Shown: positions 4,055 through 57,482 of the stretch, piece after piece
Layout: each line of letters begins with the position of its first letter
Numbering within the stretch: the stretch's first letter is position 1
Virus record (IMG/VR): IMGVR_UViG_3300031951_000036
Reading direction: 5' to 3' (one strand)
Source of the DNA: an uncultured virus (IMG/VR IMGVR_UViG_3300031951_000036)
Taxonomy: Duplodnaviria > Heunggongvirae > Uroviricota > Caudoviricetes
Length of the DNA stretch: 64,000 nt
The notes under the pieces: model-generated
What the model was told of the DNA's origin: nothing
What the model saw: the letters and a program-made list of their open reading frames with translations, nothing else
Database searches by the model: none
Translations under genes and position numbers: made by a program

Positions 4055-5713
4055 TTAGAATGAACCTCCAGTGATGGGGTTGCGCATCACGATCTTGAGA
4101 ACTTTGGTTGGGTCCTTAACCCAGATAGAAGGCATCATCTGAGTCATGAATACACGGTAACCGTTGAAGTTACCTACAGAGGCAAACCCTTGAGAGCGAC
4201 CCATGTAGTCCATAGTACCGTTTTGATAGAACCACTTCAGTTCGCTGTCCCACTTCAACTTCAACAAGAAGATGTTGTCGTTGGTGTTGTCAGTGATGTC
4301 AAACACGATGAAGTTGTAAGATGACAATGGGTAACCATCGATGATGGGGTTCTCAATGTCATTGGTGTGTACGTTGTCAAATGCAGGATTCAACACAAAC
4401 TTCACATTCGCCAAGAATGGGATTGTGTAGCTGGTGAACGCAAATCCAAAGTTCAAGTCCATAGCGTTGTTACCAGAGATCGCTCCGATACCAGCTTTAG
4501 ACATGTCAGTGAACAATGCGTTAGTCTGAGAAGACGTGGCACCTGCGATGTTAAAGGCCTCTTTCTTGATCGCCTCGTTCACCATGCGCATACCGGCCAT
4601 ACCAGTTTGTACAATGATCTGACGAGAAGGATCTGGTCCTTTAAATTCAACCTTACCATTGTAGAAGTTGAAGATCTCAGAGCGGAACAATTCCAAGTTG
4701 AAACCATTCTTGTTGTAGATACGCTTGAACGAGTTGTCCAATTGATCCCACAAACCTACTGACAAGCGAATGTCATCTGGTCCGTCTTGCTTGATTCTAC
4801 CGCCCTTACCCCACATCAGGTAAGTCTCGATGTCGTTAGCCACTTTGCTTAAGTGAGCAGATTCCATCTTGGTAACGAATGTTCTGGTCAAAGAACCATT
4901 GTCATACGCCTTCTTGATGTAGTCTTTACCCAACTTAGATACCATAGCGTCGATGTTGGTCAACGATGGATCGTTTGCGATGTTTGCGTCAAATGAGCGC
5001 CAGATTTCAGTTACAGGAACTGTACCGTCAGCGTTCATACCGCCTTTCATCATCATCTCTGCGCGGCTGGATACAGAGTAGTGTACGTGAGCTTCAGCAC
5101 CTCCAACAAAGTTGTAGTACTCGCGGAAGCCAGCGTTCAATTCTCCGATGTCAGAGAACTTCTCACCGTACTCACCACGTGCAGAACCTTTGCGGAAGAA
5201 CTTAGTGCCAGGCTTTAAATACTTGGCAGTCTCTAAAGTTGCTGTGTTGTTGTTGTTTACCAACTGTACGGTGTAGATGAAACCGTCTCCTGCAGGAAGG
5301 ATGTCATCAGCAGTGATGTACATCTCCAAGCCTTTGTACTTGTCATAAGTGACGATGTCACCGTGACCGAACGCACGCTTGTTCAACTTAATTTTGAAGG
5401 TAGTACCATCAGCACCTACGTTGCCAGACTCTACGTTCTCGACTACATAAGGAAGGTCCTGTACAACAGGAGTCTGCCACTTGTACTCTCCACGAGCGTT
5501 GTCAACTAAGATGGTGTTTTTACCACCGAACGATGCCATCTGATACAGAGGCATCTCTACCTTTTGGGTCATGGCCCACAAATCAACTGGACCTAAATCC
5601 ATAGGTTCAGAGTTTTTGAGCATGTTCACCAAATGGTAGCTGTCCACGTGAGAACTAACCTTGTAGTTAGTGTCTCTGAGGAACAAACCATTGTTTAAAA
5701 CTGGTGTTGCCAT
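4055..5713 (-). CDS. Major capsid protein (crAss-like)
   Basis: 552 aa; strongly biased codon use; YLMWGKGG and C-terminal IWVKDPTKVLKIVMRNP; order portal - acidic protein - MCP. Confidence 0.85.
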   Translation of the reverse strand: MATPVLNNGLFLRDTNYKVSSHVDSYHLVNMLKNSEPMDLGPVDLWAMTQKVEMPLYQMASFGGKNTILVDNARGEYKWQTPVVQDLPYVVENVESGNVGADGTTFKIKLNKRAFGHGDIVTYDKYKGLEMYITADDILPAGDGFIYTVQLVNNNNTATLETAKYLKPGTKFFRKGSARGEYGEKFSDIGELNAGFREYYNFVGGAEAHVHYSVSSRAEMMMKGGMNADGTVPVTEIWRSFDANIANDPSLTNIDAMVSKLGKDYIKKAYDNGSLTRTFVTKMESAHLSKVANDIETYLMWGKGGRIKQDGPDDIRLSVGLWDQLDNSFKRIYNKNGFNLELFRSEIFNFYNGKVEFKGPDPSRQIIVQTGMAGMRMVNEAIKKEAFNIAGATSSQTNALFTDMSKAGIGAISGNNAMDLNFGFAFTSYTIPFLANVKFVLNPAFDNVHTNDIENPIIDGYPLSSYNFIVFDITDNTNDNIFLLKLKWDSELKWFYQNGTMDYMGRSQGFASVGNFNGYRVFMTQMMPSIWVKDPTKVLKIVMRNPITGGSF

Positions 5714-9871: not shown

Positions 9872-12070
9872 TCATCGCAGATTCCTGAAGGGATTTCTGG
9901 GTTTTCTCATACTTGAAGAACCGCCACTGGCATTACCCATGTGACGAAAGGGGCTCTTATATAATGTACTGAATTTGGAAGAGTTCTCCAAATTACTCTC
10001 CTCACGTTCAACGCGTTTGCTGTAGCCCCTGTTGGACTCCTGCACTTTGGCAAATGCCACCAGCGCACAGAATGCCACCAGTCTATCCACGTTGAGTCCT
10101 TTGCGGTAAGCCTGCATTTCTTTTAACAACATTGCATCTGGAATGCGCTCTACTCCATGGGTGCGTTTCACAATGGTTCCATGTTCGTCACTCTCATGGT
10201 CAAGTTCTTCTTCCATGAACTGCACGGCATAACTCAGCAAGTTGCCACGGAAGATGTTACCTACGTTACGCCAGCCATATTCCTGGTAGACGTTGGTGTT
10301 GCTCATCAGCTCTTTGAGAAACATGATCTGGTTTTTGGGCACCAGGTATTTCTGCTTGCGACGCGAAATCATGTACTGGATAAACAGCGAGATGTTGTTT
10401 TCCACAATGGTCCACGCATTGTACCACTCAATGATCAGTTCCAGGCGCTCATGCGTTTTGTTGAGGTCATCAAAACGACCGCACCAACTAGCGACAATCT
10501 TGTCACGTTCAATCACCTGCTCAATGCTACCGTCTTTCTTGTGCTTGGTGACTTCCTGGGACGTCTTGTATACGTAGATGGAACACAAAGATTCTGAGGT
10601 TGTTGTCTTACCTTCTGCCACAGGGTCAATGCTGGCGTAGTACGTACCGAAGGCTGCGTCTTTCTGCGGGCGTTCATACACGCAAATGACTCCCTCTTTG
10701 TTCTGTGTCTTAGGCGTAATGGGAAACTCCAGGATGGGCAGCTTTTTGCTGTCCTGTGCCTGAATCTTACCATGCTCATCGCGGTAGAGCTCTACGTACT
10801 CAGAAAAGTATGTCTTGTCTTCAATGCGTCTCAGCTGTTGAGTAACCAGGTGCAGCGGGAACACGGAGTCTTCCCTGCTGGCAAAAGCCTCTGAAATGTA
10901 CATGGGTTTCTGAGACACCCTAAGCTGGTACTCATCCGGGCGTAGTTTCTTTTTCCAATCCTCACGCTCTGCCAGGATCATGGTCATGGCTTCCTCCACT
11001 TTGGAATTACCCCACTGGTCAATGCAGGGAATCATACTCCACTGCTCTGGAATAAAGAGTCCACACTCCCCAATTTGCCCGTTCTCATCCATCAGGTTGG
11101 TCTCTATGGCAAGCACATCCTTGGAATCGGGGTTCATGATCAGGTCTTTCAGTGGCTCACACTGCTCCAAATCTCCTACAGAACCTGCCACTACAAACTG
11201 TCCCGTGTAGACCATACCCGATTTCATGGCAGGTAACAGGTACTCCAGGGTCTTACCCATGTGTGGGGCAATACCTGCCTCCTCATGGAAGAACAACGTA
11301 CAAGGACCACCGACACCATTGGTAGGGTCTTTCTCCAGTACCAGGCCTATGAGAACGCTTTTCAGACCCACGTCGCGCTTGCGGCCACCCTGGTTAATCT
11401 CAATCTTCTGTTCCCAGTTCAATACCTTGTCAGGATTGCTGGGACGGTACCATGCAGTATGCGTGTTCAGGAAGTTTCGGTACTCCTCTAGGAAACGCCA
11501 AGTGCCTTTCTCTGCGATGTAGTCTTTCAGAGAACCGGCCATCTTGTTGATCGCACCCTCTTCAAACCAGTAGAGGTTGATCATCTTGGCCGCATGAAAA
11601 TAGGATGACGCAATCTGACGTTTCTTCAGGATTGCAGCATGTTTGTAGTGTTGCTTGGCCAGTTCCTCGTAGAGGGCCATGTGGTACTGGGCATCCCGTA
11701 CATCCGGGAAGGTGAACTTCCCCACCTCTTTGTTGTAGATAGGTAGGAAGTTCAGCCACATGTAGTAGTCACGGGTAAGATACCAGGTCTTTTTCCCATT
11801 TTTGTAGATCACCCCGTTGCGGCACTTGTCTTTCTCAGTATCCCAGTAGGCTACAAAATCCTTACTCTTGGGTGGAGCAGGGCAATAAAACTTGTCTATG
11901 TTAAACCTACGCGCCTGCTTGTTGAATAGCAGAGAGCACTCGTCAAACTCGTATTGACCAGGCTGTTTGAACATTGACCACAAGAACTCACAAAATGTTT
12001 CACGTGTCACAAATTCTGTGTGGCTCCACTCACCGGTGGCGTAATCATAGGTTGGGATCTTAATGTGCAT
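9872..12070 (-). CDS. terL: Terminase large subunit
   Basis: ILKKRQIASS (Walker A-like), FFHEEAG (Walker B), YYASIDPV nuclease motif, NVDRLVAF; start placed at ATG 12070, which overlaps the upstream TGA. Confidence 0.9.
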   Translation of the reverse strand: MHIKIPTYDYATGEWSHTEFVTRETFCEFLWSMFKQPGQYEFDECSLLFNKQARRFNIDKFYCPAPPKSKDFVAYWDTEKDKCRNGVIYKNGKKTWYLTRDYYMWLNFLPIYNKEVGKFTFPDVRDAQYHMALYEELAKQHYKHAAILKKRQIASSYFHAAKMINLYWFEEGAINKMAGSLKDYIAEKGTWRFLEEYRNFLNTHTAWYRPSNPDKVLNWEQKIEINQGGRKRDVGLKSVLIGLVLEKDPTNGVGGPCTLFFHEEAGIAPHMGKTLEYLLPAMKSGMVYTGQFVVAGSVGDLEQCEPLKDLIMNPDSKDVLAIETNLMDENGQIGECGLFIPEQWSMIPCIDQWGNSKVEEAMTMILAEREDWKKKLRPDEYQLRVSQKPMYISEAFASREDSVFPLHLVTQQLRRIEDKTYFSEYVELYRDEHGKIQAQDSKKLPILEFPITPKTQNKEGVICVYERPQKDAAFGTYYASIDPVAEGKTTTSESLCSIYVYKTSQEVTKHKKDGSIEQVIERDKIVASWCGRFDDLNKTHERLELIIEWYNAWTIVENNISLFIQYMISRRKQKYLVPKNQIMFLKELMSNTNVYQEYGWRNVGNIFRGNLLSYAVQFMEEELDHESDEHGTIVKRTHGVERIPDAMLLKEMQAYRKGLNVDRLVAFCALVAFAKVQESNRGYSKRVEREESNLENSSKFSTLYKSPFRHMGNASGGSSSMRKPRNPFRNLR

Positions 12071-12249
12071 CAGTCTTTCAAATCGTCTACTATCAGGCGC
12101 ACGTGACCCGTACTTACGGGCCATATCACCTGTTTGATTTCATAGGTATTGTTGTCCAACTCAATCCAGTCTCCTTTGCAAGGAACCTGTCTAAAATCAA
12201 AGTATGCCAGTGTACCTTCTGCTTTATGGATGATTGCTGTTGAGGGCAT
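12070..12249 (-). CDS. Small hypothetical protein (59 aa, not in ORF track)
   Basis: MPSTAIIHKAEGTLAYFDFRQVPCKGDWIEL...; TGATG coupling to terL. Confidence 0.55.
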   Translation of the reverse strand: MPSTAIIHKAEGTLAYFDFRQVPCKGDWIELDNNTYEIKQVIWPVSTGHVRLIVDDLKD

Positions 12250-13340: not shown

Positions 13341-13521
13341 AGGTTAGGTTGTTTCTTACTCTCAGATCCTTGTGCGTGAACTGCCACATCTCTCCTGTCT
13401 CATCAATTATTACCGTGTATACTGTATCCGTTTCATGTCCGTAGTCTGTCACTAGCCATACGACTCCTTTACCTTTAGGTGTGATTACCTCCAGGCGGTT
13501 GTGTGGTTCGTAGATCATCAT
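13315..13521 (-). CDS. Small hypothetical protein
   Basis: 68 aa, overlaps both neighbours. Confidence 0.55.
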   Translation of the reverse strand: MMIYEPHNRLEVITPKGKGVVWLVTDYGHETDTVYTVIIDETGEMWQFTHKDLRVRNNLTFGRHGKTI

Positions 13522-14189
13522 AGCAGCGTGACTTGTATTTGTTCATCCCGCTCTACCAGGTGATAGTACAGCTCTATATCAGCGCTCCACCCAGCTCCTG
13601 TCCAGAACTCAAAACCTTTGAACCCTGCCTTGTAGCGACAGCATTTCTCATAACCTCCCAGCAGATACACGTGCGTGCAGTGCAGCTGAGAAGCCAGATT
13701 GCATTCGTGCATTTGGGCAATGTTACCCAGCGACAGACCAGGATGTTCATAGTTGGATATGAACTGCATGGCCACAAACTGGTCATCATAGGTTTTGTAA
13801 AAACTTACACCGGCCAGCTTGTCATCGTGCCAATACTCAATACACTGGCAACCTTCAAAGTGTTCCCACTGTATATCCCTGGCAAATCCATGGTACGCAC
13901 AGTATTGCTCGTAAATTTTTTTGTATGCGTCCTGGTGCAGAATGAAATCACCAGGGCGGGCAGTCACCTTCTTACTCAGCCTTTTGACTGTTTCAGACGG
14001 ACGGTATAAGGAAAGGTCCAGGCGTACACTGCGCAGGTTATACCATTCAGAACCCCAAGGGATCCACCCTTCTTTGAGTGCATCCGCGCCAGATTCTCCT
14101 GGCTCCAGGATTCCATAGGGCGCGGAGTAGATAAAGTCTAAGTCAGAGACCTTACCAAAACCTTCTATGTGGTCAAAGTGCACTTTCAC
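13518..14189 (-). CDS. ATE1/Bpt-like aminoacyl-tRNA--protein transferase (GNAT-like fold)
   Basis: RSVRLDLSLYRPS, IEYWHDDKLAGVS, LSLG...HVYLLGGYEKCCRYKAGF match the ATE C-terminal pattern; GTGA/ATGA overlaps with neighbours. Confidence 0.65.
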   Translation of the reverse strand: MKVHFDHIEGFGKVSDLDFIYSAPYGILEPGESGADALKEGWIPWGSEWYNLRSVRLDLSLYRPSETVKRLSKKVTARPGDFILHQDAYKKIYEQYCAYHGFARDIQWEHFEGCQCIEYWHDDKLAGVSFYKTYDDQFVAMQFISNYEHPGLSLGNIAQMHECNLASQLHCTHVYLLGGYEKCCRYKAGFKGFEFWTGAGWSADIELYYHLVERDEQIQVTLL

Positions 14190-16197: not shown

Positions 16198-16251
16198 GTG
16201 GTTAACTTTAAGCTTCGCCCAGTGCGCGATACCATGTGGTTTTTCATGTCG

Positions 16252-16332
16252 TTGTGCAGGAGGGACTCGAACCCCCAAGCCTCACGGACCAGATTTACAG
16301 TCTGGCGAGCCAACCAGTTGCTCAACTGCACA
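16252..16332 (-). tRNA. tRNA-Tyr(GTA)
   Basis: Acceptor TGTGCAG/CTGCACA, anticodon arm CCAGA-CTGTAAA-TCTGG, variable arm, T loop TTCGAGT. Confidence 0.9.
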
Positions 16333-16342
16333 AAGTGGATTC

Positions 16343-16633
16343 TTAATCTAAAATCATCCAGTCTTCAGACAGCATGTCCGTCTGAGAGGCAAGCCATCCC
16401 ATCAGGATCTTGTTGTCTGCGGTTTTGAACAAGATATATGGCAATACTTCAGCAGTACCACCGTTTTGTTCTGCAAATGCACGGGTGTGAGGATTCCAGA
16501 ACTTCTCTGCTTCTAGTGCAGGGTTTCCTTCACCCAAAGCAACCCACATCCCTTTACCATTCCAGCCGGCACGGCAAGCGCGCTTACCAGCTTTTAGCGC
16601 TTCAAGCGCTTGACCATAACTTAGATTGCTCAT
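16343..16633 (-). CDS. Tad2-like (DUF2829-type) nucleotide-sponge anti-defence protein
   Basis: YGQALEALKAGKRACRAGWNGKGMW ... WLASQTDMLSEDW family signature. Confidence 0.8.
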   Translation of the reverse strand: MSNLSYGQALEALKAGKRACRAGWNGKGMWVALGEGNPALEAEKFWNPHTRAFAEQNGGTAEVLPYILFKTADNKILMGWLASQTDMLSEDWMILD

Positions 16634-16878
16634 TTCTTCAGCCCCTTGGCAATGCCCTTTACCGCATACATCTGCGCTGTTTCTAACTCTGTCATGGCAA
16701 TGCTAAAGCAACGCTTGGCCTCACCATCTTCTGTACCAAGCAATTCATTGTTACAATAATCAATGGCATCTGCCATCATACGTTTGAATGTTCCAATCTT
16801 GTCATCTGAAGATGGATTGAAATTGATATGACATCTAGACTCCCCTAGTGTCAATGTTCTCATGTCTGTGTTTTCCAT
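16630..16878 (-). CDS. Acb2/Tad1-like helical-hairpin protein (putative signal sponge)
   Basis: TLGESRCHINFNPS ... KRCFSIAMTELETAQMYAVKGIA resembles the Acb2/Tad1 C-terminal hairpin; start at 16878 avoids overlap with the tRNA. Confidence 0.6.
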   Translation of the reverse strand: MENTDMRTLTLGESRCHINFNPSSDDKIGTFKRMMADAIDYCNNELLGTEDGEAKRCFSIAMTELETAQMYAVKGIAKGLKK

Positions 16879-16895
16879 ACTTGGTTTTAAAGTAG

Positions 16896-16970
16896 TTGCG
16901 GGGGCAGGGCTCGAACCTGCGTACTTCGGCTTATGAGACCGAGCTGGGACCAACTCCAGTCTACCCCGCC
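16896..16970 (-). tRNA. tRNA-Met(CAT), initiator-like
   Basis: GGCGGGG/CCCCGCA acceptor with 1:72 mismatch; TCGGT-CTCATAA-GCCGA; T arm GCAGG-TTCGAGC-CCTGC. Confidence 0.85.
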
Positions 16971-16979
16971 ATCCAGAGG

Positions 16980-17267
16980 TTACCACACAATGGCCACCTC
17001 ATATTCGTTCAACATCAGGTAATGCTTGTCTTCCAACGGTAACACTTCGCATGACTGCAACGCGCTGCCAGAGATGTACACTTCGTCCCCTGCTTTTACA
17101 CCTTCTACTTCTTCACCAACCGCAGACACTTTAAGACGTGTCCACTTGCTGATGAACTCACGGTCCAGTGCAGCTTGCTGTTCTGGGGTCAACTCAATGG
17201 CTGACTTCGGACGCTCTGGTTTCTCAATAAGAATCCTTCGTCCCTTAAGGGCTTTAAACTCTAGCAT
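16980..17267 (-). CDS. GroES/Cpn10-like co-chaperonin
   Basis: LKGRRILIEK ... VSAVGEEVEGVKAGDEVYI ... YLMLNEYEVAIV. Confidence 0.7.
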   Translation of the reverse strand: MLEFKALKGRRILIEKPERPKSAIELTPEQQAALDREFISKWTRLKVSAVGEEVEGVKAGDEVYISGSALQSCEVLPLEDKHYLMLNEYEVAIVW

Positions 17268-32843: not shown

Positions 32844-33228
32844 ACAACCCAATATGACAGATGAGCAGAAGCTCCGGGTACTGAACGCCATCATGTGGAT
32901 TCAGACCTGTGTTTACGCCTGTGATAGCGTGGAAGACATCGAGTGGTTCATGGCCAGACGTGTAAAGTACCTGGCTAAGAACTTGGTGGAGACGTCTCTC
33001 AGAGACCACAACCAGATTATTAAAGCGCTGTGGGAAGATGACGGTGCTCAAATGAACATGGTCACCGATGCGATGGATACTTTCTGCAAACGCGTGGCTG
33101 GCATTGACTACTACAAAATCCCTGAACTTATCCACTTGCTGGATCTGTACACAGAAGGTAAGCTGGACCATTTATTTACTAAACCCAAAGACGATGGAGA
33201 AAAAAGACAAACTGAAGGTGGAGTATAG
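32836..33228 (+). CDS. Hypothetical protein
   Basis: 130 aa. Confidence 0.55.
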   Translation: MSKQPNMTDEQKLRVLNAIMWIQTCVYACDSVEDIEWFMARRVKYLAKNLVETSLRDHNQIIKALWEDDGAQMNMVTDAMDTFCKRVAGIDYYKIPELIHLLDLYTEGKLDHLFTKPKDDGEKRQTEGGV

Positions 33229-38432: not shown

Positions 38433-38710
38433 TGAAAAAGCTATACGAAAACCAAGACAACAAGCTGGCTCTAGCCTTGGGCAGGACCGGCAACGGACAT
38501 GTGCTAAGAAGCATTAGTGGTAAGAAGACCATTGAGTGGACAGAAACCCCTGACCGTCAGATGAATACAGTAGAGTTCAGGCTGACTGAACCTGCTATCC
38601 TGGAACACCCTGAGCACTCTCCCATTGTGCTGGAACCAGGAGTGTACACCCGCACCCTGCAGGTGGAGTTCAATCCTTTTGACAGAAGTGTTAGTTACAT
38701 TTTTGATTAA
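38432..38710 (+). CDS. Small His-containing beta protein
   Basis: TGNGH...LEHPEH.PIVLEPGVY. Confidence 0.6.
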   Translation: MKKLYENQDNKLALALGRTGNGHVLRSISGKKTIEWTETPDRQMNTVEFRLTEPAILEHPEHSPIVLEPGVYTRTLQVEFNPFDRSVSYIFD

Positions 38711-38766
38711 AAATGTTACAACTTTTTGTAGATGTGAAGAGTTCTGTTGTAATATTGTAGACCTCT

Positions 38767-39234
38767 ATGAACACCACACTGAAGCGCGCCCTCTATCTAG
38801 ATGATGTGCGCACCCCAACTGTTACCCTGGAAGGCTTTGCGCCATTTGCAGTGGTAAGAAACTATGACCAATTTGTCGGGCACATCCAGTCTCATGGAGT
38901 GCCTGACCTCATATCCTTTGACCATGACCTGGCTGATGAGCACATGATGGATTACTTTACCCATCAGGCTAATGGCATTGCCGTGGTTGAGTATGATAAG
39001 TTTACTGAGAAGACAGGCCTTGATTGCATCAAGTGGCTGTGTAACTACATCCTTGATGAGCATGAAAAAGGCAATACTATTCCTATGCCTGCTGTGCGCG
39101 TGCATAGCCATAATCCTGTGGGTGGTGCGAACATACATAACTATGCAAATAATTTTTGCGCATCCATGGGTTGGCCTGCTGCTGCTAGTTTTCTGAGAGT
39201 TCCCTTTGAGATAGCAACACAGGTAGACGAATAG
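38767..39234 (+). CDS. Cyclic-phosphate-processing receiver-like domain protein
   Basis: LYLDDVRTP, ISFDHDL, TGLDCIKWL, VHSHNPVG. Confidence 0.7.
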   Translation: MNTTLKRALYLDDVRTPTVTLEGFAPFAVVRNYDQFVGHIQSHGVPDLISFDHDLADEHMMDYFTHQANGIAVVEYDKFTEKTGLDCIKWLCNYILDEHEKGNTIPMPAVRVHSHNPVGGANIHNYANNFCASMGWPAAASFLRVPFEIATQVDE

Positions 39235-39250
39235 GTGTAGCGCTACGCCC

Positions 39251-39324
39251 GCGTCCATAGCTCAATTGGCTAGAGCAGTGGTCTCCAAAACCACAGGTTC
39301 CAGGTTCGAATCCTGGTGGGCGTG
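39251..39324 (+). tRNA. tRNA-Trp(CCA)
   Basis: GTGGT-CTCCAAA-ACCAC anticodon arm; CCAGG-TTCGAAT-CCTGG; G73. Confidence 0.9.
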
Positions 39325-39348
39325 CAACAATGTTCTTTGACAATATAT

Positions 39349-39922
39349 TCTTTCAAGTGTATGATCTAACGTGATCACGCGTGTGCTGGCACATAGACCA
39401 GATGTGGGGAGCGGTTCTCACAGTTCAACGTACTCTTTATCTAGTATGCGCTATATCCGCAGAACCATCATTGAGTGCTTTCCCAGCCGCAGGGTAGAAC
39501 AATCAGCGGTCAGACTTGACAAAACATTTGAAAGATGAAATTAAGGAGTGAGCATAAAAGACCACATGCAGAATGTAACGGCCAGTTTCTAGAGAGCGCC
39601 TATTCACTAGTATGTTTCTGTGCGATTGCATGCAATATCTCCTCAGGTTTATACATGGCTAACAACAATGGTAGAGCTATACCAAAGCTGGTGTGATTAG
39701 CCAGTCGGCTCCACGTGAACGCTAAATTACAGAGATCACAGCCAGAGAAATAACGCGCCCATTGGGAGAACTAAAAGGCGTCTATCTCACGTTGTTACCC
39801 ATGTACAGGCTTACCCGCAATACAGAGTGTCTGTCAGAGTTGCTACTGACAACCCCAGTTGAGGAATACTCTCCGTAAGGACGTCTACTCGGAGTGACGT
39901 ATAGCACTGGGTTCTGTATTGC
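39349..39922 (+). ncRNA. Array of stem-closed structured RNA modules (or one large ncRNA)
   Basis: ORF-free; closing helices of 12 bp, 14/15 bp and 10 bp. Confidence 0.6.
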
Positions 39923-39929
39923 ACACATT

Positions 39930-40051
39930 AGTCAGGTGGCGGAATGGTAGACGCTTCCTTTATCACAAGGAATAATTGGATAGTGATATATCCTAACATA
40001 AAAGATGTTGATGAAAGTCCTTCTTTACAGGTTCGAATCCTGTCCTGACTA
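39930..40051 (+). ncRNA. tRNA-like RNA with anticodon arm replaced by three hairpins
   Basis: AGTCAGG/CCTGACT acceptor, Leu-type D arm, ACAGG-TTCGAAT-CCTGT; loops TATCAC and GTGATA are complementary. Confidence 0.75.
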
Positions 40052-40182
40052 CGAATGTGGTTCGACTCCACTCGTTTACTGAGGTTGTGGTAAGTAGGTG
40101 TGCCAAAGTTCGAGCCTTTGGGTCTAGAAATAGATGATGGTAGACACGAACAGTATGACAGCTTGGAAAGACAAGCAAGCAT

Positions 40183-40278
40183 AGCACAGTGGTGAAATTG
40201 GTTCACACAAGTCAGTGGAGTAATTCCCAACGGTAAAAAAAGATACTTGTGATACAGGTTCAAATCCTGTCTGTGCTA
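40183..40278 (+). ncRNA. tRNA-like RNA with oversized anticodon loop
   Basis: AGCACAG/CTGTGCT acceptor, D arm, ACAAGT/ACTTGT stem enclosing >30 nt, T arm ACAGG-TTCAAAT-CCTGT. Confidence 0.7.
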
Positions 40279-40283
40279 CGGGC

Positions 40284-40495
40284 TCTGCTTCACTTGCAGA
40301 TAATGTGTCCAACATGAACAAACAGGGTAGTGCCTGTATGGAATTGCTGATAGACCAAAGGTCTATTTAGATTGACTATCTACTGAAAGGGGACTAAACA
40401 GTAACCCATCAAGTCTATTCCTAACCTCTGCGTCTAACAGACTGCGGACAAAGAGGGACAACCGCGATATCTGTAGCTGGATAATGCAGGGTATC
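40284..40495 (+). ncRNA. Ornate structured RNA, copy 2
   Basis: Colinear with 22365-22558. Confidence 0.75.
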
Positions 40496-40499
40496 ATTT

Positions 40500-40581
40500 G
40501 GCCATGTGGTGGAATTGGTAGACACACACGTCTCAGAAGCGTGTATCTCACGATGTGCAGGTTCGACTCCTGTCATGGTCA
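40500..40581 (+). tRNA. tRNA-Leu(CAG)
   Basis: GGCCATG/CATGGTC, CACGT-CTCAGAA-GCGTG, variable arm, T arm. Confidence 0.9.
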
Positions 40582-40583
40582 CA

Positions 40584-40817
40584 ATGAAAAAGTGTTTTTA
40601 CTGTGAGCGCAAGCTTCCGCTGTTCATGTACGCATTGAACAGACGGCAGTACCAGCGCCCTGAAGATAAGGGCCGGTGCAAATCATGTCACATCTGCAAC
40701 TACAAGTACTGGTCTGACCAGGGCTTTGCGTGGTTGCTCAATATCAACACGGGAAAGTTTGAACGTGTTGAGTTTAAATCTAAGTTGGACATTATCAGAA
40801 AAATCTTATGGATGTAA
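40584..40817 (+). CDS. Zn-finger protein
   Basis: CFYC ... CHIC; ATG 40584 just after tRNA. Confidence 0.55.
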   Translation: MKKCFYCERKLPLFMYALNRRQYQRPEDKGRCKSCHICNYKYWSDQGFAWLLNINTGKFERVEFKSKLDIIRKILWM

Positions 40818-41371
40818 AAGAGTTTGAGGCTTACCTCACTATAGATGAGCTGGCAAATTTCAAAGCCAATTTGAAAAATGGATGGTTATCAGCAGGTCGT
40901 GATGAACCAATTGACTACAAGCAGTATATCAAAATGACCAATGCATATACAGTTATGACAAGCTCTTTTGTTTGGAACCTTACGCCAGAAGGGTCACGAT
41001 ACTGGTCAGAGATTCATGATCGTTTTACATCACGCAAACCGCTGACCAATAACTTTCTGGCAGGACATGACTACATGATGTTCTTTACCGCTGAACAGTG
41101 GGGTAAGCTTTGCAAGATAGCCATGGAGCATCTTGGCCCTGAAGCATACAGCCGATGGATGTCTAGCAGTCATGCAAGCATTACCAGTTTTATCACAACC
41201 GGCATACCAGCTTCTGAACAATCTAAGTTTACAGGAAATATCCGCACAGCTGACAGTTCTGGTTATCGAATAAACAGAGGGCTTATTGTAAAGCGCGGTG
41301 AGTTTCTGACCAAAGAAAACACACAAGCTTCAAGTTATACATCAACAACACGCATACACGCAGGCCTATGA
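40808..41371 (+). CDS. Hypothetical protein
   Basis: FVWNLTPEGSRYW motif. Confidence 0.55.
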   Translation: MDVKEFEAYLTIDELANFKANLKNGWLSAGRDEPIDYKQYIKMTNAYTVMTSSFVWNLTPEGSRYWSEIHDRFTSRKPLTNNFLAGHDYMMFFTAEQWGKLCKIAMEHLGPEAYSRWMSSSHASITSFITTGIPASEQSKFTGNIRTADSSGYRINRGLIVKRGEFLTKENTQASSYTSTTRIHAGL

Positions 41372-41718
41372 GATTTGTAAAAGGCAAATTAACCAAAACA
41401 TCTGACAATCAATGGGTGTTCATCGCCCGTTTATCTAGTAAGGAAAAATCAAGAGAGCTCAGCAGGGTGCAACACTACCCTATCACACCACTTGATGAAG
41501 AAATAGTCCGTTACCACGCTACTGAATTGAAAGAGCTGGGTATGGAGTATCAAGGAGAGCATTTGAAAGCTGAGCTTAAAGACTATTGGAGCTCACCAGA
41601 AGGTAAGTATTCTGAGCTGCATCCTTCAGAAAGCTTTAGAAAGCTTGCTAACAAGAAAACATTTGCAAAGCTAATTTACCAAGAAGATGAAAGTGAACAT
41701 CAAGAAACTGCATCCTGA
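41368..41718 (+). CDS. Hypothetical protein
   Basis: ATGA overlap. Confidence 0.5.
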   Translation: MRFVKGKLTKTSDNQWVFIARLSSKEKSRELSRVQHYPITPLDEEIVRYHATELKELGMEYQGEHLKAELKDYWSSPEGKYSELHPSESFRKLANKKTFAKLIYQEDESEHQETAS

Positions 41719-42836: not shown

Positions 42837-42986
42837 GTCTGTGTAACACATTGATTATCAATGCCTGTTCCTTGCGTAACATGCGTAAAACAGGCATTTT
42901 TAGTGTGGTAAATCGTGAGTGATTTACACCTACACAAAACTGTTCAAAAAACGCATCCACGCTATCATAGGTATAAAATCCTTTAT

Positions 42987-44162
42987 ATGATAGTATCTTT
43001 CTTCACAAGACCCGGCAGGCGGGGTGTGCGCTTCCTGTATTGCCGGTTAACCACCCAGCAAAAATGCGCAGAAATCAAGCTCAACTACATTGTTACAGGC
43101 AGTGACAGGAAAGTGGATGCTTACAAGAAGCAGGTAGAAGACCAGATTGCTGAGCTCTACAACCACCAACTGATCAAAGAAAAGCCAGCGGATCCCCAGA
43201 CCATTAAGACCCTGTTCCAAACCAAAACCAAGGCGTACTTCCTGCTGGATACGTTCAAGGACTTTATTGACAGGCGGATTAAACCCAGGGTAGATAAGAA
43301 AGACCTGGGCAAAGGTAGCCTTCAGAAGTATACCTGCGTCTATGAACACCTCAAGGATTTCACAAATGCCCGTGGGCGTACAGACGTACCCTGGCAAATG
43401 GTGGATGATACCTTTGTAGAAGAGTTTGATGAGTACCTCAGACAGTTCAACTCCCACAACACGGTAATGAAGAGCCTGTACAAGTTCAAGACCGTGGTCA
43501 CCTATGCCCTGAAGGTCAAAAAGTACATTACAGAAGACCCTTTTGCTACCAAGTCATTGACACTGAAGAAGGTGTTTCCCATTGCCCTGACCCAGACTGA
43601 GCTCCAGATGCTGATCAAAAAGCGCATGGACGTTGAACGGCTGGAACAGGTAAAGGACTTGTTTCTTTTCCAGTGTTTTAGCGGTTTGTCTTATGCAGAC
43701 ATGCGCAAACTGAAACAGGCGTATATCAGTGACCAAATCATCAACACCAACCGTCAGAAGAACGGTGAGCCTGCTATAGCGTATATGTACCAACTCGCTG
43801 AAATGATACTAAAAAAGCATGAAAACAGGCTTCCCATAGTGTCAAATCAAAAAATGAACGCATATCTTAAAGAAATTGCTGACATTTGCAACATTAGTAA
43901 ACGGTTAACTACACACGTGGCAAGACACACGTATGCTACAACAGTTAATTTAAAGAACGGTGTATCTTTACAAACCGTTCAAAAGTTGCTTGGTCACGCA
44001 ACGATTAAACAAACAGAACATTACGCGCGTTTGGACGACAGTGATGTAAAAAATGTGTGCAAACGAGCAAGCAGGAAAGTAAACAAACTATATAACTTAC
44101 CTGAACAGTTAAGTTTTTTTGACAAACAAAAGCAAGAAAATGGCGAAGAAAAAGCTCACTGA
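42987..44162 (+). CDS. int: Tyrosine integrase, Bacteroidota IntDOT-like
   Basis: FQCFSGLSYAD (Ser at first Arg position), RQK, SNQKMNAYLKEI, HVARHT, LLGH, TEHY. Confidence 0.92.
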   Translation: MIVSFFTRPGRRGVRFLYCRLTTQQKCAEIKLNYIVTGSDRKVDAYKKQVEDQIAELYNHQLIKEKPADPQTIKTLFQTKTKAYFLLDTFKDFIDRRIKPRVDKKDLGKGSLQKYTCVYEHLKDFTNARGRTDVPWQMVDDTFVEEFDEYLRQFNSHNTVMKSLYKFKTVVTYALKVKKYITEDPFATKSLTLKKVFPIALTQTELQMLIKKRMDVERLEQVKDLFLFQCFSGLSYADMRKLKQAYISDQIINTNRQKNGEPAIAYMYQLAEMILKKHENRLPIVSNQKMNAYLKEIADICNISKRLTTHVARHTYATTVNLKNGVSLQTVQKLLGHATIKQTEHYARLDDSDVKNVCKRASRKVNKLYNLPEQLSFFDKQKQENGEEKAH

Positions 44163-55499: not shown

Positions 55500-57482
55500 A
55501 TGAGACAGCGCAAGTTCTGGATAATGGACTATGAAACCATTGTCAACTGCTTTATTGCTGTCTATGAGGACATGAACAGTGAAGAGCGCCATGTATTCGT
55601 GGTAAGTCCTTACCGCAATGACATGCGTGCCTTCACCGAGTTCCTCTTAGAGTCTAAGGCAATGGGTGACTGGCACTTAGGTTTCAACAACTTAGCGTTT
55701 GACGCGCAAATTACAGAGTACATCCTGGCCAACCAGGAAATGTTCTGTAGGGCAGATATTGATGCGGATGTATATACATCCCTCATTTATCAGTATGCCC
55801 AATCAGTGATTGAGAAATCACGCAACAACGAGTTCCTTGACTATCCAGAATTTAAACTGTCCATACCCTGTGTGGATATTTTCAAGCTCAACCACTGGGA
55901 CAACCGTGCCAAAAGCACCAGTCTCAAGTGGGTCCAGTTCTCTATGGACTGGAAGAACGTAGAGGAGATGCCTCATGCTCACTATGACCTGGTGCGTGAC
56001 CGCGTAACCCAGGATATGGTGATCAGCTACTGTATCAATGACGTGCAAAGTACCAAAGCCGTGTTCAACCTGACCAATCCTAAGGGAGAAAAGGTCATGG
56101 TCTCGCAAATTAACCTGCGGGCAGAACTCAGCAAGAAGTACAACGTGCGTCTGTACAGCGCGTCTGAGCCTAAAATATCCAAAGAAATCTTCCTGCACTT
56201 CCTAAGTGAGAAGCTTGGGATGGACAAGAAGGTTATCCGCAACATGCGCACCCCGCGTGATCAGGTGGTAGTCCGCGACATCCTGCTACCTTACATTGAG
56301 TTCCAAACTCCAGAGTTTATTTCTGTCCACAACTGGTTTAAAAGCCTGGTGGTGGACACGACCATTGACCTGGAGGAACTGGAGCGCAAGAAGAAAGGAC
56401 CCAGCTACAGGATGAACTATCGCAAGGTACCCACTGATTACGCGCTGGGTGGTCTGCATGGCTGCATCGCTTCTGGTGTGTATGAAGCCGGTAATGGGAA
56501 GAAGATCATATCTGCGGATGTGACCAGCTTCTACCCCAACCTAGCCATTCGCAACAAGTGGTCACCTGCGCATTTACCCAAAGAGGAATTTTGTGAGTTG
56601 TATGAGTGGATGTTTGAGGAACGTAAGAAGTATGACAAGAAAAACCCATTGAACTACCTGTTCAAGATTATCCTGAACGCTACCTATGGTCTGAGCAAGG
56701 AGAGACATTCTTTCCTGTATGACCCGGAGCTGACATTCAGGATCACCATCAACGGACAGCTGCTGCTGAGTATGCTCTATGAGATGCTGGCTACCAGGAT
56801 TCCTGGAGCACAACCGCTGATGCAGAACACCGATGGTCTGGAGTTCATGATCGATGAAGAACATGAAGAGCTGTTCTACCAAGTCTGCAAGGAGTGGGAA
56901 ACCATGACTTCCCTGCAACTGGAAACTGTTGAGTACAGCAAGATGATCATTGGCGATGTGAACAACTACATCGCAGTATATACCGATAGCAAGACCAAGT
57001 GCAAGGGTCGTTTTGAATTTAACGAGCTGCCCTTACACAAAAACAAAAGTATGCTTATCATACCCAAAGCATGGTATGCTTACTTTATCCATGGCACAGA
57101 CCCCAAGACTTTCCTGTCACAGAACAGGGACATCCATGACTACTGCGCAGGTGCAAAATTGAAGGGCGACTGGTTCTTCATTAAACAACATGTAGAAGGC
57201 GGTGCGTACAAAGAAGAAACGCTTAAGAAACTGGTCCGCTACTACAATTCCAAGCGTGGCTGCAAGCTGCTCAAAGCCAACCCGGACGGGCGCAAGATGC
57301 AGCTGGAAAGCGGCAGCGTCCACCAGTCCATATTCAACAAGTACCAGGAGAAATCCTGGGAGGAATATGAAGTGGATGAGCGCTACTACCTAGACAAAAT
57401 CTATGATGAAATAGCCAAGATTGAAAAGAAAGCACCTGTATTACCAGCACATTTAGTAAACCAACAATTAAGTCTGTTTTAA
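55500..57482 (+). CDS. polB: DNA polymerase family B
   Basis: Exo DYE / FNNLAFD / YCINDV; pol SADVTSFYPN, KIILNATYG, NTDG. Confidence 0.92.
   Translation: MRQRKFWIMDYETIVNCFIAVYEDMNSEERHVFVVSPYRNDMRAFTEFLLESKAMGDWHLGFNNLAFDAQITEYILANQEMFCRADIDADVYTSLIYQYAQSVIEKSRNNEFLDYPEFKLSIPCVDIFKLNHWDNRAKSTSLKWVQFSMDWKNVEEMPHAHYDLVRDRVTQDMVISYCINDVQSTKAVFNLTNPKGEKVMVSQINLRAELSKKYNVRLYSASEPKISKEIFLHFLSEKLGMDKKVIRNMRTPRDQVVVRDILLPYIEFQTPEFISVHNWFKSLVVDTTIDLEELERKKKGPSYRMNYRKVPTDYALGGLHGCIASGVYEAGNGKKIISADVTSFYPNLAIRNKWSPAHLPKEEFCELYEWMFEERKKYDKKNPLNYLFKIILNATYGLSKERHSFLYDPELTFRITINGQLLLSMLYEMLATRIPGAQPLMQNTDGLEFMIDEEHEELFYQVCKEWETMTSLQLETVEYSKMIIGDVNNYIAVYTDSKTKCKGRFEFNELPLHKNKSMLIIPKAWYAYFIHGTDPKTFLSQNRDIHDYCAGAKLKGDWFFIKQHVEGGAYKEETLKKLVRYYNSKRGCKLLKANPDGRKMQLESGSVHQSIFNKYQEKSWEEYEVDERYYLDKIYDEIAKIEKKAPVLPAHLVNQQLSLF

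What the first reader, a model, noticed from the sequence alone, without database searches (positions are those of the whole stretch)
39930..40051. tRNA scaffold whose anticodon arm is replaced by kissing hairpins
Seen: perfect 7-bp acceptor, A73, Leu-type D loop and canonical T arm. Between them lie TTCCTT-TATCAC-AAGGAA, GGATA-GTGATA-TATCC and AACAT-AAAAG-ATGTT. The first two 6-nt loops are exact reverse complements, allowing intramolecular kissing or intermolecular multimers. Known: bacterial LeuRS generally does not read the anticodon. Inference: a chargeable but non-decoding tRNA mimic (nuclease decoy, amino-acid donor for the ATE-like enzyme, or self-assembling RNA).
Basis: partly seen in the sequence, partly recalled or inferred. 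Interest (0 to 1): 0.82.

Follow-up and report, generated by a model that had tools for sequence, protein, structure and literature searches.

The report
Phage tRNA-shaped RNA with pairing loops
A lake phage carries a gene for an RNA that keeps the upper half of a leucine tRNA but cannot read codons, and two of its hairpin loops are built to base-pair with each other, which may let the RNA lock its shape or join with copies of itself.

Summary
Window 39930-40051 (+) has a perfect 7-bp acceptor stem, a Leu-type D arm and a canonical T arm. Its middle is not a usable anticodon arm, and the two 6-nt loops (39961-39966, 39983-39988) are exact reverse complements.

It is one member of a very large, unannotated family of freshwater-phage RNAs. 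All are built on one near-invariant tRNA(Leu)-like upper half with a hypervariable lower half. At least 129 plus at least 125 IMG/VR stretches carry the 3' half, and I counted 124 payload types among 138 elements. This scan has flagged the same scaffold family before on other DNA.

New here: the same payload occurs in four other, otherwise unrelated genomic contexts, and its two loops change together. U-A becomes G-C once and two pairs become G.U, so 30 of 30 cells stay paired. The statistics are thin (5 sequences).

The charging and ATE-donor ideas are not supported. The discriminator varies (A, G or U) within the family, and ATE_C is absent from 40 of 40 other scaffold-bearing phage records.

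Best reading: a processed, non-decoding tRNA-scaffolded RNA whose loops kiss, probably between copies. Its function is unknown.

The parts
39930..39936 (+). 5' strand of the 7-bp acceptor stem (AGTCAGG)
   Evidence: Sequence; pairs with 40044-40050. It is invariant in 5 of 5 payload homologues. 125 of 138 family elements start AGTCAGGTG.
39939..39954 (+). Leu-type D arm (stem GCG/CGC; loop with GG and A in tRNA-like places)
   Evidence: It resembles the D arm of the window's own tRNA-Leu at 40500. The D stem covaries across the family: GCG/CGC, GTG/CAC, GCT/AGC, GCA/TGC are seen in the listing.
39955..39972 (+). Hairpin 1, in the anticodon-stem position: 5-6 bp stem with 6-nt loop 1 (TATCAC, 39961-39966)
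   Evidence: Folds. The stem is invariant, although the search pattern forced this. Loop columns 35, 37 and 38 vary.
39973..39977 (+). 5-nt linker TAATT
   Evidence: invariant.
39978..39993 (+). Hairpin 2: 5-bp stem GGATA/TATCC with 6-nt loop 2 (GTGATA, 39983-39988), complementary to loop 1
   Evidence: In the loop-loop helix 30 of 30 cells are paired: U-A becomes G-C in 2 sequences, and two pairs become G.U in one sequence each.
40001..40026 (+). Third domain: outer stem 40001-40005/40022-40026 and inner GAU-GAAA-GUC hairpin (40010-40019).
Evidence: RNAalifold consensus; 5 of 5 sequences are consistent and U83C makes a C-G pair.
40027..40043 (+). Canonical T arm ACAGG-TTCGAAT-CCTGT
   Evidence: It is part of the 24/25-mer found in at least 129 plus at least 125 IMG/VR stretches.
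40044..40051 (+). 3' strand of the acceptor stem (CCTGACT) plus discriminator A at 40051; no encoded CCA (the next bases are CGA)
   Evidence: The discriminator is G in 2 of 5 payload homologues. In 105 distinct non-A family elements it is G 84, T 20, C 1.
39337..39365 (+). Sigma-70-like promoter TTGACA-17-TATGAT at the head of the gene-free RNA island (context only)
   Evidence: 11 of 12 positions match. This is a consensus match only; 4 sites were found against 4.1 expected in shuffles.
39326..40499 (+). RNA island between tRNA-Trp (39251-39325) and tRNA-Leu (40500-40582) that holds the element; no + strand ORF of 60 aa or more
   Evidence: It is conserved with relative L002. Contigs of an RNA library (X3) cover 39321-40536 without a difference.

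Best explanation
Window 39930-40051 is a gene for a non-decoding, tRNA-shaped small RNA of an uncultured freshwater phage.

The upper half is one copy of a scaffold shared almost letter for letter by hundreds of phage loci: a 7-bp acceptor stem, a Leu-type D arm and a canonical T arm. Inferred step: this half makes the host's tRNA-end-processing enzymes (RNase P at the 5' end, RNase Z or exonucleases and the CCA enzyme at the 3' end) cut the RNA out of the RNA-island transcript and keep it stable, as engineered 'tRNA scaffolds' do.

The lower half is the specific payload. In this payload type, a stem in the anticodon position and a second hairpin in the variable region carry 6-nt loops that base-pair with each other over all six positions. 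Complementarity and covariation are shown; the pairing itself is inferred.

The two short stems are joined by only 5 nt. A fully paired 6-bp loop-loop helix normally stacks end to end with both stems. I therefore think the pairing is more likely reciprocal between two copies (a closed kissing dimer, or a small ring) than within one molecule. This rests on geometry alone and is the weakest step.

What the assembled RNA then does is unknown. It is not tied to the phage's ATE-like enzyme, and it is probably not a conserved LeuRS substrate.
For: It belongs to a family.
- 139 distinct complete elements were collected (viral contigs, 14 MAG contigs and the window). 125 of 138 start AGTCAGGTG, and their middles fall into 124 clusters among 138.

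It does not decode.
- There is no ARAGORN or Rfam tRNA call on the window element.
- ARAGORN calls only 30 of 139 and 19 of 93 family elements, with scattered and odd anticodons.

The scaffold is under unusual constraint.
- Between the window and its relative L002, the scaffold ends are 24 of 25 and 25 of 25 identical.
- The real tRNA-Trp and tRNA-Leu of the same two phages are 78.9% and 89.3% identical.

The payload is a unit in its own right.
- Five metagenome loci (four distinct contexts) carry the same 122-123-nt element at 93-98% identity.
- The similarity starts at base 1 and ends at or a few bases past the discriminator (shared spans 124-136 nt). Nothing else is shared with the window.

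The loops pair.
- The loop versions are TATCAC/GTGATA, TAGCAT/GTGCTA and TAGCGC/GTGCTA. All 30 of 30 cells pair, with one U-A to G-C double change and two changes to G.U that are wobble-compatible only on the + strand.
- 4 of the 11 variable columns lie in the 12 loop columns (P = 0.012).
- Only 1 of 63 family payloads has such loops.

Presence in RNA libraries.
- Contigs of metatranscriptome run X3 cover 39321-40536 without a difference. Runs X17 and X19, from two further studies, hold the element.

Precedents.
- Phi29 pRNA multimerises through complementary loops of identical molecules (PMC4201828, passages).
- ROOL and GOLLD, phage RNAs near tRNA islands, form cages held partly by kissing loops that covary (PMC12286853, passages).
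- Phage T5 RNA1 and RNA2 are annotated 'tRNA-like stable RNA with unknown functions' and fold with the same plan.
Against: - The covariation rests on 5 closely related sequences and about three substitution events. In the count of structure pairs, 43-49 of 500 column shuffles reach the observed score.
- The stems of hairpins 1 and 2 never vary, so they have no comparative support. Stem 1 was also fixed by the search pattern.
- No tool here can tell pairing within one molecule from pairing between molecules. My geometric argument uses rough helix and linker lengths from general knowledge.
- Loop-loop complementarity and self-complementary loops are not general features of the family (1 of 63; mean 2.51 against 2.35 in the null). 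Self-assembly therefore cannot be the family's common function.
- All RNA-library evidence is from assembled contigs, which may include DNA carry-over and show no ends. Processing by RNase P or RNase Z is inferred, not observed.
- Orthologous-position elements in L002 (6911-6993) and L132 (1879-2013) carry unrelated payloads.
Confidence: 0.55

Rival explanations
1. The loops pair within one molecule. This would be an intramolecular kissing contact that locks the lower half into one compact shape, leaving a monomeric structured RNA whose surface is the functional part.
For: The complementarity and covariation fit this reading equally well. Intramolecular loop-loop helices between neighbouring hairpins are known in other RNAs, for example riboswitches and enterovirus 3' UTRs (recalled, not checked here). 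The rest of the family shows no sign of self-association.
Against: All six nucleotides of both loops are used. The stems are only 5-6 bp and the linker is 5 nt. A coaxial stem-kiss-stem stack of about 17 bp is longer than five nucleotides can comfortably span (my estimate, from general knowledge). Substitutions concentrated in the loops (4 of 11 variable columns, P = 0.012) would be more expected for a specificity code between molecules.
Confidence: 0.3
2. The scaffold is the working part. These RNAs would be sponges or decoys for a host factor that recognises the tRNA upper half, such as a tRNA-targeting defence toxin or nuclease, and the lower half would matter little.
For: The acceptor stem and T arm are conserved more tightly than real tRNAs. 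Many phages carry several copies (arrays in L002, L011-13, L025/26, L058/59). The window encodes anti-defence proteins (Tad2-like, Acb2/Tad1-like). A cREC_REC (cyclic-phosphate RNA-processing) protein lies directly upstream of the island, and cREC_REC is present in 10 of 41 scaffold-bearing records.
Against: This payload is conserved at 93-98% in five unrelated contexts, with pairing-preserving changes. Other payload types recur across contigs (11 multi-member clusters). Payloads are therefore selected, not filler. No target is known, and the anticodon loop, the usual nuclease target, is absent.
Confidence: 0.2
3. It is a chargeable, non-decoding Leu acceptor that supplies leucine to the phage's ATE/Bpt-like aminoacyl-tRNA protein transferase.
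For: The window copy has A73, G18G19-like D-loop residues and an intact D/T elbow. E. coli tRNA-Leu variants lacking the anticodon and variable arms are still charged (PMC9976931, passages). An ATE_C-like gene is present at 13518-14189 (31.8 bits against a cut-off of 25) and in the relative G002 (41.7 bits).
Against: 0 of 40 other scaffold-bearing phage records encode ATE_C, and 0 of 9 among those at least 90% complete. The discriminator is G in 2 of 5 copies of this very payload. It is A, G or U family-wide, even within single payload types. G73 is an antideterminant for LeuRS (PMC9976931). The gene lies 26 kb away on the other strand.
Confidence: 0.07
4. It is an ordinary tRNA gene interrupted by an intron or insertion and is spliced to a decoding tRNA.
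For: With introns allowed, ARAGORN forces a call on the window element (tRNA-Pyl CTA, intron of 27 nt at position 36) and on 107 of 139 family elements.
Against: Those forced calls scatter over about 20 identities, with intron positions from 28 to 41. No consistent exon model exists. The short family members have simple 3-4-nt-loop hairpins with no room for an anticodon loop. No joint inside the element is specific to RNA runs: the joints seen also occur in the DNA run and carry other payloads (tables 5 and 5c).
Confidence: 0.03
5. The two 6-mers are half-sites of a DNA inverted repeat bound by a dimeric protein, not RNA loops.
For: TATCAC and GTGATA, 16 bp apart, form a DNA palindrome. The T-to-G and A-to-C double change keeps the palindrome.
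Against: The two one-sided changes (C to T in L137, A to G in L138) break DNA symmetry but give G.U pairs on the + strand RNA. The repeat sits inside a tRNA-shaped gene whose D stem covaries as RNA. The element occurs as a unit in unrelated contexts.
Confidence: 0.05

Closest known systems
Phage T5 RNA1 (NC_005859 30501-30644, 144 nt) and RNA2 (32959-33083, 125 nt), annotated 'tRNA-like stable RNA with unknown functions'
   Same: Both lie in the phage tRNA gene cluster. Both have an acceptor-like terminal stem, a tRNA-type T arm (RNA2: GCAGG-TTCGAAT-CCTGT) and, in RNA1, a Leu-type D arm (GGAATTGGTAGAC). Both have an enlarged, non-anticodon lower half (annotation, folds). Their function is unknown.
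   Different: There is no detectable sequence similarity: blastn of the element against 50,697 phage records found nothing. T5 RNAs are single genes of one phage group. Here, one scaffold carries over a hundred different payloads in hundreds of uncultured freshwater phages. Mutually complementary loops were not examined in T5.
   Same: A phage RNA of about 120 nt in which two loops of the same molecule are complementary to each other. The pairing is used between identical molecules to build multimers (PMC4201828, passages read).
   Different: pRNA is not tRNA-shaped, uses 4-nt loop contacts around a three-way junction, and works on the phi29-type packaging motor. Multimerisation of the present RNA is untested, and the phage has an ordinary large terminase and portal.
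ROOL and GOLLD RNAs
   Same: Phage and prophage non-coding RNAs that lie near tRNA islands. They self-assemble into homo-oligomers held partly by covarying intermolecular kissing loops, and their function is unknown (PMC12286853, passages read).
   Different: They are 500-800 nt or longer, are not tRNA-shaped, and are Rfam families. No Rfam family other than tRNA matches the island at gathering score or at E <= 10.
Engineered tRNA scaffolds and tRNA-based kissing-loop nano-objects ('A polyhedron made of tRNAs')
   Same: A tRNA upper half is used as a carrier while the anticodon or variable arms hold foreign hairpins or kissing loops.
   Different: These are man-made. I saw that paper only as a cited title (23 papers cite it). 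Its design details are recalled, not read.
Bacterial tRNA-Leu (class II)
   Same: 7-bp acceptor stem, Leu-type D arm, canonical T loop, a long variable region, and A73 in the window copy.
   Different: It has a 6-nt loop with no anticodon, two hairpins in a 54-nt variable region, a variable discriminator in homologues, and no score against the Rfam tRNA model.

Membership tests
Canonical tRNA (Rfam RF00005 / ARAGORN) | Cloverleaf that scores above the family threshold | tested here: not met
   No match at gathering score or at E <= 10 in a 3-kb search. ARAGORN makes no call.
Canonical tRNA (Rfam RF00005 / ARAGORN) | 5-bp anticodon stem closed by a 7-nt loop with U33 and an anticodon | tested here: not met
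   A 5-6 bp stem is in the right place, but its loop is 6 nt (TATCAC).
Canonical tRNA (Rfam RF00005 / ARAGORN) | 7-bp acceptor stem, D arm with GG, T arm with TTCGAAT-type loop | tested here: met
   100% paired in 5 of 5 homologues.
Freshwater-phage tRNA(Leu)-like scaffold RNAs (unnamed; flagged earlier in this scan) | 5' AGTCAGG plus Leu-type D arm and 3' ACAGGTTCGAATCCTGTCCTGACT, with an unrelated middle | tested here: met
   The window element carries both ends exactly. At least 129 plus at least 125 IMG/VR stretches share the 3' end. There are 124 payload clusters among 138 elements.
Phage tRNA-cluster stable RNAs (T5 RNA1/RNA2 type) | Encoded inside the phage tRNA gene cluster | tested here: met
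   It lies between tRNA-Trp 39251 and tRNA-Leu 40500. T5 annotation.
Phage tRNA-cluster stable RNAs (T5 RNA1/RNA2 type) | tRNA-like terminal stem and T arm with a non-tRNA interior | tested here: met
   Folds.
Phage tRNA-cluster stable RNAs (T5 RNA1/RNA2 type) | Sequence homology to T5 RNA1/RNA2 | tested here: not met
   blastn found no match in 50,697 phage records.
Phage tRNA-cluster stable RNAs (T5 RNA1/RNA2 type) | Accumulates as a discrete stable RNA | not testable with these tools
   Only assembled contigs of RNA libraries were available; they show presence, not ends or level.
pRNA-type self-associating RNA | Two loops of one molecule complementary to each other and kept so in relatives | tested here: met
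   6 of 6 positions; 30 of 30 cells paired over three loop versions. The support is thin (5 sequences).
pRNA-type self-associating RNA | Pairing is intermolecular and gives multimers | not testable with these tools
   Needs native gels, AUC or cryo-EM.
LeuRS substrate (bacterial tRNA-Leu identity as reviewed in PMC9976931) | Discriminator A73 | tested here: inconclusive
   A in the window, L134 and L138; G in L135 and L137. Family-wide it is A, G or U.
LeuRS substrate (bacterial tRNA-Leu identity as reviewed in PMC9976931) | D/T-loop elbow (G18G19 with U55C56; U54:A58) | tested here: met
   GG in the D loop and TTCGAAT in the T loop. This is read at sequence level only.
LeuRS substrate (bacterial tRNA-Leu identity as reviewed in PMC9976931) | Aminoacylation actually occurs | not testable with these tools
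   Needs a biochemical assay.
ROOL / GOLLD | Match to Rfam covariance model | tested here: not met
   No such match in the window or in 38500-41500 at E <= 10.

The most novel reading that the evidence does not exclude
Freshwater phages make a natural self-assembling tRNA. The loop in the anticodon position and a variable-arm loop form a programmable, covarying kissing pair. Two (or a few) copies then clasp each other into a closed dimer or ring that presents tRNA upper halves outward. The loop 'code' diversifies (three versions seen) so that RNAs of co-infecting phages do not cross-assemble. This would be a small, tRNA-based counterpart of phi29 pRNA and of the ROOL/GOLLD RNA-only assemblies.
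Probability: 0.3. Interest if true: 0.85.

Novelty: new variant of a known kind. Interest (0 to 1): 0.62.

Why it matters
Natural RNAs that assemble with copies of themselves were long thought to be nearly unique to phi29 pRNA. ROOL and GOLLD showed recently that phage RNAs next to tRNA islands can form large RNA-only assemblies.

A 122-nt tRNA-shaped RNA with a covarying loop pair would be a far smaller and more tractable case. It can be tested with a native gel and two mutants.

More broadly, the element belongs to a very large, unannotated class of phage RNAs: one tRNA upper half with over a hundred different lower halves. These are invisible to tRNA finders and to Rfam. Lake phages are therefore spending genome space on a 'tRNA-scaffold display' system whose purpose is unknown.

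Showing that at least one payload has a conserved, specific tertiary or quaternary contact argues that the payloads are functional, not decayed tRNAs.

Tried and rejected
- Own genome: not held. The nearest record, G001, shares only a 52-nt match with the island.
- Exact 24-mer of D arm plus hairpin 1 in IMG/VR: 0 hits.
- Payload patterns in IMG/VR: 0 hits. A loops-fixed, stems-free pattern gave 6 hits. None has a scaffold or hairpin stems, so they are chance matches. All homologues of this payload therefore come from one metagenome scan, and the stems of hairpins 1 and 2 remain without covariation data.
- blastn of the payload against about 130 fetched family loci: nothing below E = 0.02.
- GenBank phages: no match to the element.
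- Is loop-loop complementarity a family trait? No. Mean longest run is 2.13 against 2.11 in the null, and only the window's payload reaches 5 or more.
- Are self-complementary loops enriched? No: 2.51 against 2.35.
- Host tRNA or attP idea: the 25-mer occurs in 14 contigs of 185,579 species genomes. All are MAG contigs and all carry long payloads; no ordinary cellular tRNA has it. The scaffold is thus neither a copy of a known host tRNA nor an integration-site remnant.
- Intron reading: rejected (see rivals).
- ATE link: rejected at family level.
- RNA libraries: in run X3 no contig was laid on 39200-39301 or 40577-40700 (the coding flanks). This is only absence of cover in contigs of one study, and the DNA run X1 is itself patchy there, so I draw nothing from it.
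- Joints that skip 39955-40026 occur in the DNA run as well and carry other payloads. They come from other family members, not from splicing.
- Two full-text searches for a description of anticodon-less tRNA-like phage RNAs found none that fits. Most subscription papers are not in that library, and I opened no supplements.
Full report
**1. What the window is**

The window is part of an uncultured tailed phage.
- It encodes a portal (7121-9850), large terminase (9872-12124), major head protein (4055-5713), DNA polymerase (55500-57482) and an integrase (42915-44162) (Pfam).
- Its closest available relative is a complete 125,760-bp IMG/VR genome with terminal repeats (L002 = G002).
- All public runs that hold the flagged element are freshwater or lake metagenomes: 20 rows from 13 studies, 2017-2025.

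**2. The observation**

- A perfect 7-bp acceptor stem (39930-39936 with 40044-40050) and A at the discriminator position (40051).
- A D arm very like that of the window's own tRNA-Leu(CAG) and a canonical T arm (40027-40043).
- Between them, TTCCTT-TATCAC-AAGGAA and GGATA-GTGATA-TATCC, whose 6-nt loops are exact reverse complements.

The minimum-free-energy fold gives these hairpins: -33.3 kcal/mol, z = -2.35, with 5 of 200 shuffles folding as well.

ARAGORN finds four tRNAs in the window, but not this element. The Rfam tRNA model does not match it at gathering score or at E <= 10 in a 3-kb search.

Hairpin 1 starts right after the D stem. It has the length of an anticodon stem but a 6-nt loop, so the RNA cannot present a normal anticodon.

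**3. It is one member of a very large family**

- The relative L002 has, between the same tRNA-Trp and tRNA-Leu genes, five elements with the same acceptor stem and T arm but different middles.
- From the first set, plus 14 MAG contigs and the window, I extracted 139 distinct complete elements. Total lengths run 54-279 nt, median 103.
- 125 of 138 begin AGTCAGGTG, mostly followed by a Leu-type D arm whose stem covaries.
- The middles fall into 124 clusters among 138 elements, at 4-146 nt.
- Short members have plain hairpins with 3-4-nt loops.
- ARAGORN of 139 and 19 of 93, with scattered, often impossible anticodons. With introns allowed it forces 107 of 139 into about twenty identities with no consistent intron site.
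- No record among 50,697 GenBank phages matches the element.
- In 185,579 species genomes the 25-mer occurs only in 14 MAG contigs, always with a long payload. No ordinary cellular tRNA has this scaffold.
- Between the window and L002 the scaffold ends are 24 of 25 and 25 of 25 identical. The real tRNA-Trp and tRNA-Leu of the same two phages are 78.9% and 89.3% identical.
- Earlier notes of this scan describe the same scaffold family on other DNA. I re-derived it independently here.

**4. The payload of this element and its loops**

The elements at the orthologous position in L002 (6911-6993) and in a third phage (L132, 1879-2013) carry unrelated payloads. IMG/VR holds no other copy of this payload.

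A metagenome scan for the D-arm end plus stem 1 with any loop found five loci. L134 and L136 are the same phage. L135, L137 and L138 are three further contexts.

Each of these loci shares only 124-136 nt with the window. The similarity starts at the first base of the acceptor stem and ends at or a few bases past the discriminator. tblastx finds no other similarity to the 64-kb window. The RNA gene, scaffold plus payload, is therefore a unit kept at 93-98% identity in otherwise unrelated phages.

Eleven of the 123 alignment columns vary. Four of them lie in the twelve loop columns (hypergeometric P = 0.012). The loop versions are:

| Source | Loop 1 | Loop 2 |
|---|---|---|
| window, L134, L135 | TATCAC | GTGATA |
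| L137 | TAGCAT | GTGCTA |
| L138 | TAGCGC | GTGCTA |

- All 30 of 30 cells of the six-pair loop-loop helix remain standard pairs.
- One pair changes on both sides (U-A to G-C, in 2 sequences). Two pairs change on one side to G.U or U.G.
- Both one-sided changes keep pairing only if the + strand is read as RNA. They break the symmetry of the DNA palindrome.
- Predicted duplex energies are -4.5, -5.2 and -6.1 kcal/mol.

The sample is small. In the column-shuffle control, 43-49 of 500 shuffles reach the observed covariation score. The stems of hairpins 1 and 2 never vary, and stem 1 was fixed by my pattern.

Within the family this feature is special. Of 63 payloads with two or more hairpin loops, only this one has a loop-loop run of 5 or more. 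Self-complementary loops are not enriched either.

**5. The rest of the payload**

The RNAalifold consensus instead gives a single longer hairpin: outer stem 40001-40005/40022-40026 and inner GAU-GAAA-GUC. The TG-to-CA difference in three homologues turns U.G into C-G there, so 5 of 5 sequences fit.

**6.

*Non-decoding: supported* (section 2).

*Chargeable by LeuRS: possible for the window copy, but not a conserved property.*
- According to the identity review PMC9976931 (passages read), E. coli tRNA-Leu needs A73 and the D/T elbow, not the anticodon or variable arm.
- The same review says variants lacking both arms are still charged.
- However, G73 is an antideterminant, and 2 of 5 copies of this payload have G73.
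- Among 105 distinct non-A family elements the discriminator is G 84, T 20, C 1. The same payload types occur with different discriminators.

*Donor for the ATE-like enzyme: not supported.*
- The gene is real: 13518-14189, ATE_C 31.8 bits against a cut-off of 25. It is also in G002.
- But 0 of 40 other scaffold-bearing records have it, and 0 of 9 among those at least 90% complete.

*Spliced to a normal tRNA: not supported* (tables 5 and 5c).

**7. Expression**

- Contigs of metatranscriptome run X3 cover 39321-40536 in four overlapping pieces without a single difference.
- Runs X17 and X19, from two other studies, contain the element in the TG-to-CA version, inside other flanks.
- These are assembled contigs from RNA libraries. 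They show presence, not transcription, ends or level.
- A strong sigma-70-like site (TTGACA-17-TATGAT, 39337-39365) stands at the head of the island and is conserved in L002. The scan found as many such sites as shuffles give.

**8. How it most likely works**

*Shown.* The RNA is tRNA-shaped and non-decoding. It sits on a scaffold under stronger constraint than real tRNAs. Its payload is conserved as a unit in unrelated phages, and the payload's two loops stay complementary through three substitution events.

*Inferred.*
- The upper half recruits the host's tRNA-end-processing enzymes and stabilises the RNA.
- The loops pair.
- Both loops are fully used, the stems are 5-6 bp and the linker is 5 nt. 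A coaxial stem-kiss-stem stack (about 17 bp) is hard to close within one molecule. A reciprocal dimer needs each linker to bridge only two neighbouring helices. The helix and linker lengths are my estimate from general knowledge, so this is the weakest step.
- Substitutions concentrated in the loops would suit a specificity code between molecules.

*My odds.*

| Claim | Probability |
|---|---|
| The loops truly pair | about 0.75 |
| The pairing is between molecules | about 0.3-0.4 overall |
| The pairing is within one molecule | about 0.3 |

The downstream function is unknown. A decoy or sponge role for the scaffold remains possible and does not exclude the above.

**9. Comparison with what is known**

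- The closest described objects are T5 RNA1 and RNA2. They are annotated 'tRNA-like stable RNA with unknown functions' and fold to the same plan, but show no sequence similarity.
- For context, ROOL and GOLLD are phage RNAs near tRNA islands that self-assemble partly through covarying kissing loops (PMC12286853).
- T4 rnaC/rnaD, TAR-TAR*-type fully paired 6-nt kissing loops and the engineered tRNA polyhedron are recalled, not checked. I saw the last only as a cited title.
- I found no description of this family in Rfam or in two full-text searches. I consulted no supplements.

**10. Verdict**

The element is real and more than chance. The scaffold family is already known to this scan. The covarying kissing-loop pair in this payload is a new and directly testable feature. 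I class it as a new variant of a known kind (non-decoding tRNA-like RNAs of phage tRNA clusters), with interest 0.62.

Noticed in passing
window 40183-40278 (+): A second odd tRNA-like gene with a different acceptor stem (AGCACAG). The Rfam tRNA model scores it 48.9 bits but with a 31-nt 'anticodon loop', and ARAGORN does not call it. It is absent from relative L002. A comparable second tRNA-like follows the same spacer in L132.
   Followed up: partly
window 40052-40182 (+); L002 6994-7120; L132 2014-2140: The spacer directly after the element holds two T-arm-like hairpins (GTGG-TTCGACT-CCAC and CCAAAG-TTCGAGC-CTTTGG) without acceptor stems. It ends in a leader, GACAGCTTGGAAAGACAAGCA, that recurs before tRNA-like genes in many loci. 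It is 89% identical to L002 over 121 nt.
   Followed up: partly
window 40279-40499 (+): A gene-free stretch between the second tRNA-like and tRNA-Leu has homologues in three other phage loci: L094 at 79% over 130 nt, plus L001 and L095. It is probably another conserved structured RNA of phage tRNA islands.
   Followed up: no
window 39326-39929 (+); L002 5521-6132: About 600 nt of conserved non-coding sequence (72% identity over 623 aligned columns to L002) lies between tRNA-Trp and the element, headed by a sigma-70-like site. In RNA run X3, a 213-nt contig of depth 513 from another source matches only 39858-39923, so that sub-motif is shared more widely.
   Followed up: no
window 13518-14189 (-): A 223-aa phage protein matches ATE_C (arginine-tRNA-protein transferase C-terminus; 31.8 bits, cut-off 25) next to a PD-(D/E)XK nuclease. 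It is conserved in G002 at 41.7 bits but absent from 40 of 40 other scaffold-bearing phage records.
   Followed up: partly
window 38767-39234 (+): The gene directly upstream of the RNA island encodes a cREC_REC (cyclic-phosphate processing receiver) domain protein (66.5 bits). The family is present in 10 of 41 scaffold-bearing phage records and in 0 of 14 control genomes. In G002 and G029 it lies within about 1 kb of a scaffold element.
   Followed up: partly
window 16343-16986 (-): Tad2-like (85.2 bits) and Acb2/Tad1-hairpin (38.5 bits) anti-defence proteins sit side by side next to tRNA-Tyr (16251-16332) and tRNA-Met (16895-16970). The second ORF overlaps the tRNA-Met call.
   Followed up: no
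L002 6141-6993 versus window 39930-40051: Between identical flanks the relative has five scaffold elements where the window has one. The first of the five has a divergent T arm (GTAGGG-TTGCG-CCCTAC). The arrays therefore expand, contract or swap payloads at the constant ends.
   Followed up: partly
L134 3-51, 611-669, 1613-1669, 1857-1916: A repeat of about 56 nt occurs at least four times in the 3-kb locus that carries the same element. One copy starts right after the element's 3' end. It may be a repeated intergenic promoter or terminator module.
   Followed up: no
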